A DNA stretch of 25,864 nt from a virus. Position numbers and translations under genes: made by a program. Of this stretch, positions 25,199-25,218 are shown one piece after another; positions within the stretch are counted from its first letter, which is position 1; every line of letters starts with the position of its first letter. The notes under the pieces are model-generated. The model saw only the letters and a program-made list of their open reading frames with translations. It did no database searches and was not told the origin of the DNA. The DNA lies in UHGV virus genome UHGV-0869939; one strand, given 5' to 3'.

Positions 25199-25218
25199 AA
25201 CTGTATATTTATACAGTA
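25199..25218. promoter_or_regulatory. LexA (SOS) box
   Basis: AACTGTATATTTATACAGTA, CTGT-N8-ACAG core, near-identical to the enterobacterial consensus TACTGTATATATATACAGTA; 20-40 bp upstream of the ATG at 25179, overlapping a TATAAAT -10-like element. Confidence 0.7.

What the first reader, a model, noticed from the sequence alone, without database searches (positions are those of the whole stretch)
25199..25218. Near-consensus LexA box directly upstream of the small antirepressor-domain gene
AACTGTATATTTATACAGTA fits CTGT-N8-ACAG and differs from the E. coli consensus at only two positions. It overlaps a TATAAAT -10-like element 20-40 bp before the ATG, the classic arrangement for SOS-repressed promoters. 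This ties prophage induction or cargo expression to host DNA damage, and shows the annotated 126-codon ORF is over-extended.
Basis: partly seen in the sequence, partly recalled or inferred. Interest (0 to 1): 0.65.

Follow-up and report, generated by a model that had tools for sequence, protein, structure and literature searches.

The report
LexA box controlling prophage antirepressor Ant
The palindrome is a genuine, very strong binding site for the host DNA-damage repressor LexA, sitting on the promoter of a small antirepressor gene, so DNA damage can wake this epsilon15/phiV10-like E. coli prophage; the same switch has already been worked out in the sister Salmonella phage SPC32H.

Summary
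Observation confirmed. AACTGTATATTTATACAGTA lies at 25199-25218. It has 2 mismatches to the 20-nt E. coli LexA consensus, and it is the only site in the window within 3 mismatches (0.00 expected).

It lies 20-39 nt upstream of an ATG at 25179 on the minus strand. That ATG opens an 85-aa protein that matches the crystallised Ant antirepressor of Salmonella phage SPC32H (PDB 5D50 chain E, E 1.3e-47).

The window is an epsilon15/phiV10-type (Uetakevirus) E. coli prophage. Gene order matches SPC32H and epsilon15. Across 90 loci from six genera the half-sites (TACTGT / ATACAGT) are kept, apart from a one-base A-to-G variant in phiV10, while the spacer and flanks drift. Two loci lack an intact box: one rearranged contig, and SPC32N, whose ACAG reads AAAG.

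The 126-codon ORF is over-extended. The extension is closed by stop codons in 57 of 89 relatives, RefSeq annotates 85 aa, and a conserved GGAG sits 8 nt before the ATG.

The matching non-cleavable-type Rep repressor lies outside the window, in a prophage 99.1% identical over the 571-bp ant region compared.

Interpretation supported. This is the known LexA-Ant-Rep induction switch (Kim and Ryu 2013; Kim et al. 2016), here unannotated. Low novelty.

The parts
25199..25218 (-). LexA (SOS) box. On the ant sense strand it reads TACTGTATAAATATACAGTT, at -39 to -20 from the ant ATG.
   Evidence: Half-sites conserved in 88 of 90 related loci from six genera, with one A-to-G variant in phiV10. The SPC32N variant carries ACAG to AAAG.
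24922..25179 (-). ant: 85-aa antirepressor, ortholog of SPC32H Ant and epsilon15 gp19.
   Evidence: PDB 5D50_E at E 1.3e-47 over residues 2-85. RefSeq annotates the same 258-nt CDS as WP_001188262.1 'hypothetical protein'. PHROG 450.
25188..25191 (-). Shine-Dalgarno GGAG, 8 nt upstream of the ATG at 25179.
   Evidence: Read from the sequence. GCATGGA is invariant and the GGAG is kept in 9 of 10 sequences from six genera; Erwinia dacicola reads GGAA.
25180..25302 (-). Non-coding leader and promoter region wrongly included in the mechanical 126-codon ORF.
   Evidence: In-frame stop 21-114 nt upstream of the ATG in 57 of 89 relatives; 19 of these are a group that includes the 1-nt-insertion variants. 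PGAP uses the short form.
25213..25218 (-). Candidate -10 hexamer TACTGT, the left half-site of the box. An alternative -10, TATAAA, lies at 25213-25208.
   Evidence: Inference from conservation. Not found by the consensus scan. No transcription start site data.
25236..25241 (-). Candidate -35 hexamer TGGATA, 17 nt upstream of TACTGT, inside the invariant block TGCTGGATA.
   Evidence: Invariant in all 10 sequences from six genera while the 17-nt spacer diverges. Inference only.
25255..25271 (.). Perfect palindrome ATTACC-N5-GGTAAT, a probable phage Rep operator, between ant and the tailspike gene.
   Evidence: The orthologous epsilon15 site 19895-19911 is annotated protein_bind 'repressor'. 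Its role for ant was not tested.
24899..24916 (.). G+C-rich hairpin between the convergent 226-aa gene and ant, a likely terminator. It starts 6 nt past the ant stop codon.
   Evidence: epsilon15 and phiV10 annotate a terminator at the corresponding place.

Best explanation
This is the SOS input of an SPC32H-type antirepression switch in an epsilon15/phiV10-like (Uetakevirus) E. coli prophage.

In the lysogen a host LexA dimer sits on the near-consensus box at 25199-25218. The box overlaps the -10/start region of the ant promoter, so ant (24922-25179, minus strand) is silent.

DNA damage activates RecA and LexA cleaves itself. Because the box is as strong as the tightest chromosomal boxes, ant is probably released only after a marked fall in LexA.

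Ant (85 aa, a tetramer in the SPC32H structure) then binds the C-terminal domain of the phage repressor Rep. It breaks the DNA-binding Rep tetramer into dimers, lifting repression of the lytic promoters.

Rep carries no autocleavage domain, so ant is the route by which SOS reaches the prophage.

Shown here: the site, its uniqueness and strength, orthology of Ant, synteny, conservation of the half-sites, the correct start codon, and the presence of Rep in a closely related prophage.

Inferred from homology and the literature: LexA binding, damage inducibility, and the Ant-Rep interaction in this particular element.
For: Site and statistics.

Ant orthology to the crystallised SPC32H antirepressor: (E 1.3e-47).

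Same genus and synteny (virion genes, terminator, ant on the opposite strand, then tailspike).

Phylogenetic footprint: TACTGT and ATACAGT are unchanged across E. coli, Salmonella, Citrobacter, Erwinia, Pseudocitrobacter and Scandinavium elements, except for one A-to-G change in phiV10. The central spacer and the flanks change.

Natural experiment: SPC32H and SPC32N differ at 2 positions in 3510 nt. One turns ACAG of the box into AAAG, raising the heterology index from 2.5 to 6.4.

Literature: LexA self-cleavage allows synthesis of Ant, which inhibits the repressor (PMC7380047 citing Kim and Ryu 2013). [quoted passage not shown]

Rep ortholog in E. coli PS_131_S11, whose prophage is 99.1% identical over the 571-bp ant region compared: PDB 5D50_A at E 3.5e-42, HTH domains only, no S24 peptidase.

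No other LexA box in the window or in the 22 kb holding the early region of that relative.

E. coli phage ZX5 carries an Ant identical over 84 of 84 aligned residues, and mitomycin C raises its titre from 1e7 to 1e9 PFU/mL.
Against: There is no experimental datum for this element itself.

The primary papers (Kim and Ryu 2013; Kim et al. 2016) are not in the held library, so their details rest on citing papers, GenBank and PDB records, and my memory.

The consensus sigma-70 scan found no promoter at the box. The exact promoter geometry is therefore inferred from conservation.

rep is not inside the window.

The tailspike gene next door carries a frameshift in this window. The prophage may therefore be defective even if the switch works.
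Confidence: 0.9

Rival explanations
1. The LexA box serves the divergent tailspike gene (ATG at 25375), or both genes, rather than ant alone.
For: The box lies in a 195-nt divergent intergenic region that also holds a repressor-type palindrome and, in epsilon15, an annotated IHF site.
Against: The box ends 157 nt from the tailspike ATG but 20 nt from the ant ATG. The conserved TGGATA-17-TACTGT arrangement faces ant. The literature assigns LexA control to Ant synthesis.
Confidence: 0.04
2. The 126-codon ORF (24922-25302) is the real gene, and the palindrome is a coding sequence or mRNA feature rather than an operator.
For: The long ORF is open in the window and in 31 of the 88 other loci analysed.
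Against: 57 of 89 loci have an in-frame stop 21-114 nt upstream of the ATG. A GGAG kept in 9 of 10 divergent sequences sits 8 nt before ATG 25179. The crystallised SPC32H protein is 86 aa and aligns from residue 2-3. PGAP, phiV10, epsilon15, SPC32H and ZX5 records all annotate 85-86 aa.
Confidence: 0.02
3. The palindrome is a chance A+T-rich inverted repeat, or the site of a different, phage-encoded regulator.
For: A+T-rich promoter regions often hold palindromes. A second conserved palindrome of another type lies 37 nt away.
Against: Zero matches expected by chance at 3 or fewer mismatches. The heterology index is 1.3 against 13 or more elsewhere in the window. Exactly the LexA-contact half-sites are conserved while the spacer varies. 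A half-site mutation distinguishes SPC32N from SPC32H.
Confidence: 0.02
4. The switch is a relic: box and ant are intact, but the prophage is defective, so SOS-induced Ant acts only in trans on other resident prophages or has no consequence.
For: The tailspike gene has a 1-nt insertion that closes its frame after 103 codons in this window. Trans-acting antirepressor crosstalk is documented for Gifsy prophages (PMC3121763).
Against: This does not contradict LexA control of ant. The frameshift may be a sequencing error. The rest of the virion module has long intact ORFs.
Confidence: 0.15

Closest known systems
Salmonella phage SPC32H LexA-Ant-Rep antirepression switch (Kim and Ryu 2013, J Virol 87:11775; Kim et al. 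2016, PNAS 113:E2480; PDB 5D50 and 5D4Z)
   Same: Same genus (Uetakevirus). Ant aligns over 84 residues at E 1.3e-47. Same position and orientation between the virion operon and the tailspike gene. Same box half-sites at the same distance from the ATG. A Rep ortholog is present in a closely related E. coli prophage.
   Different: The host is E. coli. The spacer of the box is TATAAATA rather than TATGTTTA, giving a slightly better match to the consensus. Ant lacks one residue near the N-terminus. Rep aligns end to end but with many substitutions in its N-terminal half, so immunity specificity may differ. The E. coli element carries an inserted accessory block (YafO-like toxin pair, an AntA/Ant-like fusion gene, a 226-aa gene) that the SPC32H and epsilon15 records lack here; phiV10 has a smaller Bro-N insertion at the same place.
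epsilon15 gp19 and phiV10 p24 (annotated hypothetical proteins)
   Same: Orthologous genes with the same box upstream.
   Different: None of substance. Their records, like RefSeq for E. coli, annotate neither the box nor the function.
Gifsy-1/2/3 antirepressors (GfoA, GfhA, GftA) of Salmonella and Tum of coliphage 186
   Same: Same logic: a LexA-repressed small antirepressor, encoded far from the immunity region, inactivates a non-cleavable repressor (PMC3121763; PMC7380047).
   Different: Different phage types (lambdoid siphoviruses and a P2-like myovirus). Sequence relatedness to Ant was not tested here. From memory, Kim and Ryu describe Ant as structurally distinct from them.
Large Ant/AntA/BRO-N/KilAC antirepressors (P22 Ant type; Pfam PF08346, PF02498)
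   Same: They share the name and the repressor-inactivating role. The neighbouring 218-aa AntA protein carries a C-terminal module 42% identical to Ant.
   Different: The 85-aa Ant has no Pfam antirepressor domain. P22 ant is controlled by Mnt and Arc, not LexA.

Membership tests
SPC32H-type LexA-Ant-Rep antirepression switch | Small (about 86 aa) Ant protein homologous to SPC32H Ant | tested here: met
   phmmer against PDB: 5D50 chain E, E 1.3e-47, residues 2-85 aligned to 3-86.
SPC32H-type LexA-Ant-Rep antirepression switch | LexA box immediately upstream of ant, overlapping its promoter | tested here: met
   The box lies at -39 to -20 from the ATG with heterology index 1.33. It aligns column for column with the SPC32H box. 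The overlap with the promoter is inferred from conserved hexamers, not from a mapped start site.
SPC32H-type LexA-Ant-Rep antirepression switch | ant placed between the virion-protein operon and the tailspike gene, divergent from tailspike | tested here: met
   Same arrangement in SPC32H, epsilon15, phiV10, TL-2011b and ZX5. In the window an accessory gene block is inserted upstream of ant's 3' end.
SPC32H-type LexA-Ant-Rep antirepression switch | Cognate Rep repressor with HTH domains and an Ant-binding tetramerisation domain, without an S24 autocleavage domain | tested here: inconclusive
   rep is not inside the window. In E. coli PS_131_S11, whose prophage is 99.1% identical over the 571-bp ant region compared, a 194-aa protein matches 5D50 chain A (E 3.5e-42) over its full length. 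Pfam finds HTH families only.
SPC32H-type LexA-Ant-Rep antirepression switch | LexA binds the site; ant is induced by DNA damage; Ant binds Rep and induces the prophage | not testable with these tools
   Needs EMSA, reporter assays and genetics. Indirect support: ZX5, whose Ant is identical over 84 of 84 aligned residues, is mitomycin-C inducible.
Gammaproteobacterial LexA (SOS) box | 16-nt core CTGT-N8-ACAG within a 20-nt palindrome close to TACTGTATATATATACAGTA | tested here: met
   2 mismatches in 20. It is the only such site in 25.9 kb, with 0.00 expected.
Gammaproteobacterial LexA (SOS) box | Heterology index within the range of proven sites | tested here: met
   1.33 against 1.1-9.3 for 24 recalled proven E. 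coli boxes. All other window positions score 13.07 or more. The matrix was recalled from memory.
Pfam antirepressor families (AntA/AntB PF08346, BRO-N PF02498, KilAC/ANT) | Significant match of the 85-aa protein to one of these models | tested here: not met
   Pfam gives only a sub-threshold DUF724 hit and NCBIfam gives none. PHROG 450 is labelled 'unknown function', and there is only a weak partial hit to PHROG 1760 'anti-repressor'.
Tum (186) / Gifsy antirepressor proteins | Sequence or fold homology to Tum, GfoA or GfhA | not tested
   Their sequences were not retrieved. The resemblance claimed here is functional only.

The most novel reading that the evidence does not exclude
The switch may have two stages. 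The ant-tailspike spacer also carries a perfect ATTACC-N5-GGTAAT palindrome (25255-25271), the motif annotated as the repressor operator in epsilon15. It sits about 13 nt upstream of the candidate ant -35.

Three more copies lie in the two intergenic spacers of the adjacent accessory block (23029, 24044, 24137). Two of them lie upstream of a 218-aa AntA protein whose C-terminal 74 residues are 42% identical to Ant.

LexA loss would give a first pulse of Ant. Inactivating Rep would then de-repress the second, larger Ant-domain protein, and perhaps raise ant transcription itself. That would lock induction in by positive feedback.

This E. coli-specific elaboration is absent from the corresponding stretch of the SPC32H and epsilon15 records, which lack the fusion gene there.
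Probability: 0.2. Interest if true: 0.45.

Novelty: already known. Interest (0 to 1): 0.2.

Why it matters
The call gives a correct functional label to a gene that RefSeq, phage GenBank records and PHROGs list as 'hypothetical' or 'unknown function'. That region is present in 532 of 5426 complete E. coli genomes searched.

It explains how phiV10-type prophages of E. coli sense DNA damage. These include prophages of O157, ETEC, APEC and K1 strains, several with endosialidase or O-antigen-specific tailspikes.

It also flags that a published study of an E. coli member (ZX5) tested the BRO-N protein as 'the' antirepressor and overlooked the small LexA-controlled one.

It adds no new biology beyond the SPC32H paradigm.

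Tried and rejected
Papers not held: I tried to read Kim and Ryu 2013 (PMC3807360), Kim et al. 2016 (PMC4983836) and Kropinski et al. 2007 (PMC2698709). None is in the library. Their content is used only through citing papers, GenBank and PDB records, and memory, and is marked as such.

Promoter scan: the consensus sigma-70 scan of 24700-25500 found no promoter at the box. Its rule needs at least 4 of 6 matches in each hexamer and a T at position 6. TATAAA fails the T rule and TACTGT has 3 of 6.

Family libraries: Pfam and NCBIfam gave no family for Ant.

Loose pattern hits: CTGT-N8-ACAG also hits 5049 and 9591. I rejected both as chance, because the 5049 copy scores a heterology index of 13.1-14.1 and the 9591 copy is not among the ten best sites.

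Genome scan: the species-representative genome collection returned only 5 loci. The diversity there is thin but spans four further genera.

Second LexA box: I looked for one in front of the second Ant-domain gene and in the early region of the related prophage. None was found.

The 126-codon ORF: considered and rejected as real.

Full report
OBSERVATION

The + strand at 25199-25218 reads AACTGTATATTTATACAGTA. The minus strand reads TACTGTATAAATATACAGTT.

- The loose pattern CTGT-N8-ACAG occurs three times in the window against 0.40 expected.
- Only this copy is close to the full LexA consensus. It has 2 mismatches to TACTGTATATATATACAGTA and is the sole hit at 3 or fewer mismatches, with 0.00 expected in 100 shuffles.
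- I built a position matrix from 24 proven E. coli SOS boxes recalled from memory. With it the heterology index is 1.33.
- That is in the class of umuDC (1.08) and dinD (1.63), and better than recA (5.3) in the same matrix. The next best position anywhere in the window scores 13.07.

WHAT THE BOX PRECEDES

The gene is on the minus strand. The mechanical ORF is 24922-25302 (126 codons). An internal ATG at 25179 is preceded by GGAG (25191-25188) with an 8-nt spacing, and it opens an 85-aa protein.

- That protein matches chain E of PDB 5D50, 'Anti-repressor protein' of Salmonella phage SPC32H, at E 1.3e-47 over residues 2-85.
- Pfam and NCBIfam have no model for it, and PHROG 450, its family, is labelled 'unknown function'.
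- RefSeq annotates the same 258-nt CDS as a hypothetical protein.
- The box lies at -39 to -20 from this ATG.

START CODON

I analysed 89 related loci.

- The 41-codon upstream extension is open in only 32 of them.
- In the other 57 an in-frame stop lies 21-114 nt upstream of the ATG. This includes a TGA created by a single substitution just before the box (25 loci) and a group of 19 loci that includes the 1-nt-insertion variants.
- GCATGGA is invariant across six genera, and the GGAG is kept in 9 of 10 sequences.

The proof is comparative rather than the presence of the box.

CONTEXT

The 571-nt region around the box occurs in 532 of 5426 complete E. coli genomes, mostly at 95-99% identity.

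- It also occurs in phages of the genus Uetakevirus: phiV10, vB_EcoP_ZX5 and phiv142-3 at 95-98%, and epsilon15, SPN1S, SPC32H and SPC32N at about 76%. The unclassified Stx phage TL-2011b matches at 96.5%.
- In all of them ant lies after the virion-protein operon and a terminator, on the opposite strand, divergent from the tailspike gene.
- In E. coli PS_131_S11 the prophage sits next to guaA and ends with lysis genes.

CONSERVATION OF THE SITE

I aligned ten divergent sequences from E. coli, Salmonella, Citrobacter braakii and C. werkmanii, Erwinia dacicola, Pseudocitrobacter and Scandinavium.

- The half-sites TACTGT and ATACAGT are unchanged, except that phiV10 reads TACTGTG (A to G just after CTGT).
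- The central spacer varies (for example TATAAAT, TATATTT, TATGTTT, TACATTT, TATAAAC, TACATAA), as do the flanks.
- That is the pattern expected for a LexA operator.

Among 80 E. coli viral contigs the box is intact in all but one, L039, where a rearrangement replaces the left half.

SPC32H and SPC32N differ at two positions in the 3510 nt compared.

- One difference is in tailspike codon 5.
- The other converts ACAG of the box to AAAG, raising the heterology index from 2.5 to 6.4.
- From memory of Kim and Ryu 2013, this mutation makes Ant constitutive and the phage virulent. The held review PMC7380047 confirms the general statement that LexA self-cleavage allows Ant synthesis, which inhibits the repressor.

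MECHANISM

PMC9638917 and PMC9986798 summarise the structural work.

- Rep binds DNA as a tetramer.

rep is not in the window. In E. coli PS_131_S11, whose prophage is 99.1% identical over the 571-bp ant region compared, a 194-aa protein about 5 kb beyond the window's 5' end matches 5D50 chain A over its whole length (E 3.5e-42). It has HTH domains only and no S24 peptidase. This fits a repressor that cannot sense RecA directly.

No other LexA box exists in the window or in that 22-kb segment. The ant box is therefore the only recognisable SOS input.

E. coli phage ZX5 carries an Ant identical over 84 of 84 aligned residues. Its titre rises from 1e7 to 1e9 PFU/mL with mitomycin C (PMC9782041).

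The very low heterology index suggests that ant is released only after a marked fall in LexA. This is an inference.

PROMOTER GEOMETRY (INFERRED)

The consensus scan found nothing at the box. Two candidates exist.

Its equivalents in relatives are TATATT, TATGTT and TACATT, but it has no conserved -35 partner.
- The conservation-based candidate: TGGATA (25241-25236, inside the invariant TGCTGGATA), a 17-nt variable spacer, then TACTGT (25218-25213). Both hexamers are invariant in six genera.

In either case LexA would cover the -10/start region. A mapped transcription start is needed to decide.

COMPARISON AND NOVELTY

This is the LexA-Ant-Rep switch described for SPC32H. The same genus, gene, position and operator are involved.

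It works like Tum of phage 186 and the Gifsy antirepressors, but protein homology to those was not tested.

It is not a member of the Pfam AntA/BRO-N/KilAC families.

The finding is correct and useful as annotation, because the gene and box are unannotated in RefSeq and in the E. coli phage records. The ZX5 study also tested the BRO-N protein instead. Biologically, however, the switch is already known.

SIDE OBSERVATIONS

- The palindrome ATTACC-N5-GGTAAT occurs 8 times in the window at 2 or fewer mismatches, against 0.72 expected.
- One perfect copy lies 37 nt from the LexA box.
- Copies lie in both intergenic spacers of the accessory block.
- In epsilon15 the same motif is annotated as the repressor site and flanks the repressor gene. 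In the E. coli relative it also flanks rep.
- The 218-aa AntA protein (23117-23773, minus strand) has a C-terminal module 42% identical to Ant.
- That module is near-identical over about 80 residues to the C-terminus of ZX5 ORF4. Overexpressing ORF4 lowered lysogeny about 1000-fold.
- Together these observations allow, but do not show, a feed-forward second stage of the switch.

Noticed in passing
window 25255-25271, 24137-24153, 24044-24060, 23029-23045, 5578-5594, 2490-2524: The palindrome ATTACC-N5-GGTAAT occurs 8 times at 2 or fewer mismatches against 0.72 expected, mostly in intergenic spacers. In the epsilon15 GenBank record the same motif is annotated as the phage repressor binding site, and it flanks the rep gene both there and in the E. 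coli relative L012. These are probably Rep operators scattered through the late and accessory regions.
   Followed up: partly
window 23117-23773 (minus strand): A 218-aa protein has an N-terminal AntA domain (PF08346). Its C-terminal 74 residues are 42% identical to the small Ant. The same C-terminal module, fused to a BRO-N domain, is ORF4 of phage ZX5, which reduced lysogeny when overexpressed (PMC9782041). There is no LexA box upstream, but two ATTACC-N5-GGTAAT palindromes lie there. It may be a second, Rep-controlled antirepressor.
   Followed up: partly
window about 25678-25686 (tailspike gene starting at 25375): Relative to PS_131_S11, TL-2011b and ZX5 the window has an extra base (GAAGTTCCATGAGG against GAAG-TGCATGA). 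This closes the tailspike frame after 103 codons, and the downstream frame stays open to the window end. It is either a pseudogene, meaning a defective prophage, or a sequencing error.
   Followed up: partly
L039 (IMGVR_UViG_2563366870_000004), upstream of ant: This is the only E. coli relative in which the left half of the LexA box and everything upstream is replaced by unrelated sequence (...GACCCATAAACATACAGTT). It may be a rearrangement or insertion that would uncouple ant from LexA, or an assembly artefact.
   Followed up: no
window 22162-22987 (minus strand): A two-gene cassette: a 108-aa protein overlapping a 170-aa YafO-like toxin. The Pfam YafO_toxin hit is sub-threshold, but RefSeq names it a type II TA YafO family toxin. 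It was inserted together with the AntA gene and a 226-aa cysteine-rich protein (24173-24853, PHROG 6762) between the virion operon and ant. The corresponding stretch of the SPC32H and epsilon15 records lacks it.
   Followed up: no
Databases and literature: PHROG 450, RefSeq WP_001188262.1, PMC9782041: The Ant family has a crystal structure and a published function. It is nevertheless labelled 'unknown function' or 'hypothetical protein' in PHROGs, RefSeq and most phage records. The ZX5 paper did not consider it when studying that phage's antirepressor.
   Followed up: yes
window 25199-25218 compared with TL-2011b and phiV10 (L006, L005): The central bases of the box are AAA on the ant strand in the window and most E. 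coli relatives, but TTT in TL-2011b, phiV10 and some others. The spacer is effectively inverted while the half-sites stay fixed. phiV10 also has TACTGTG.
   Followed up: no
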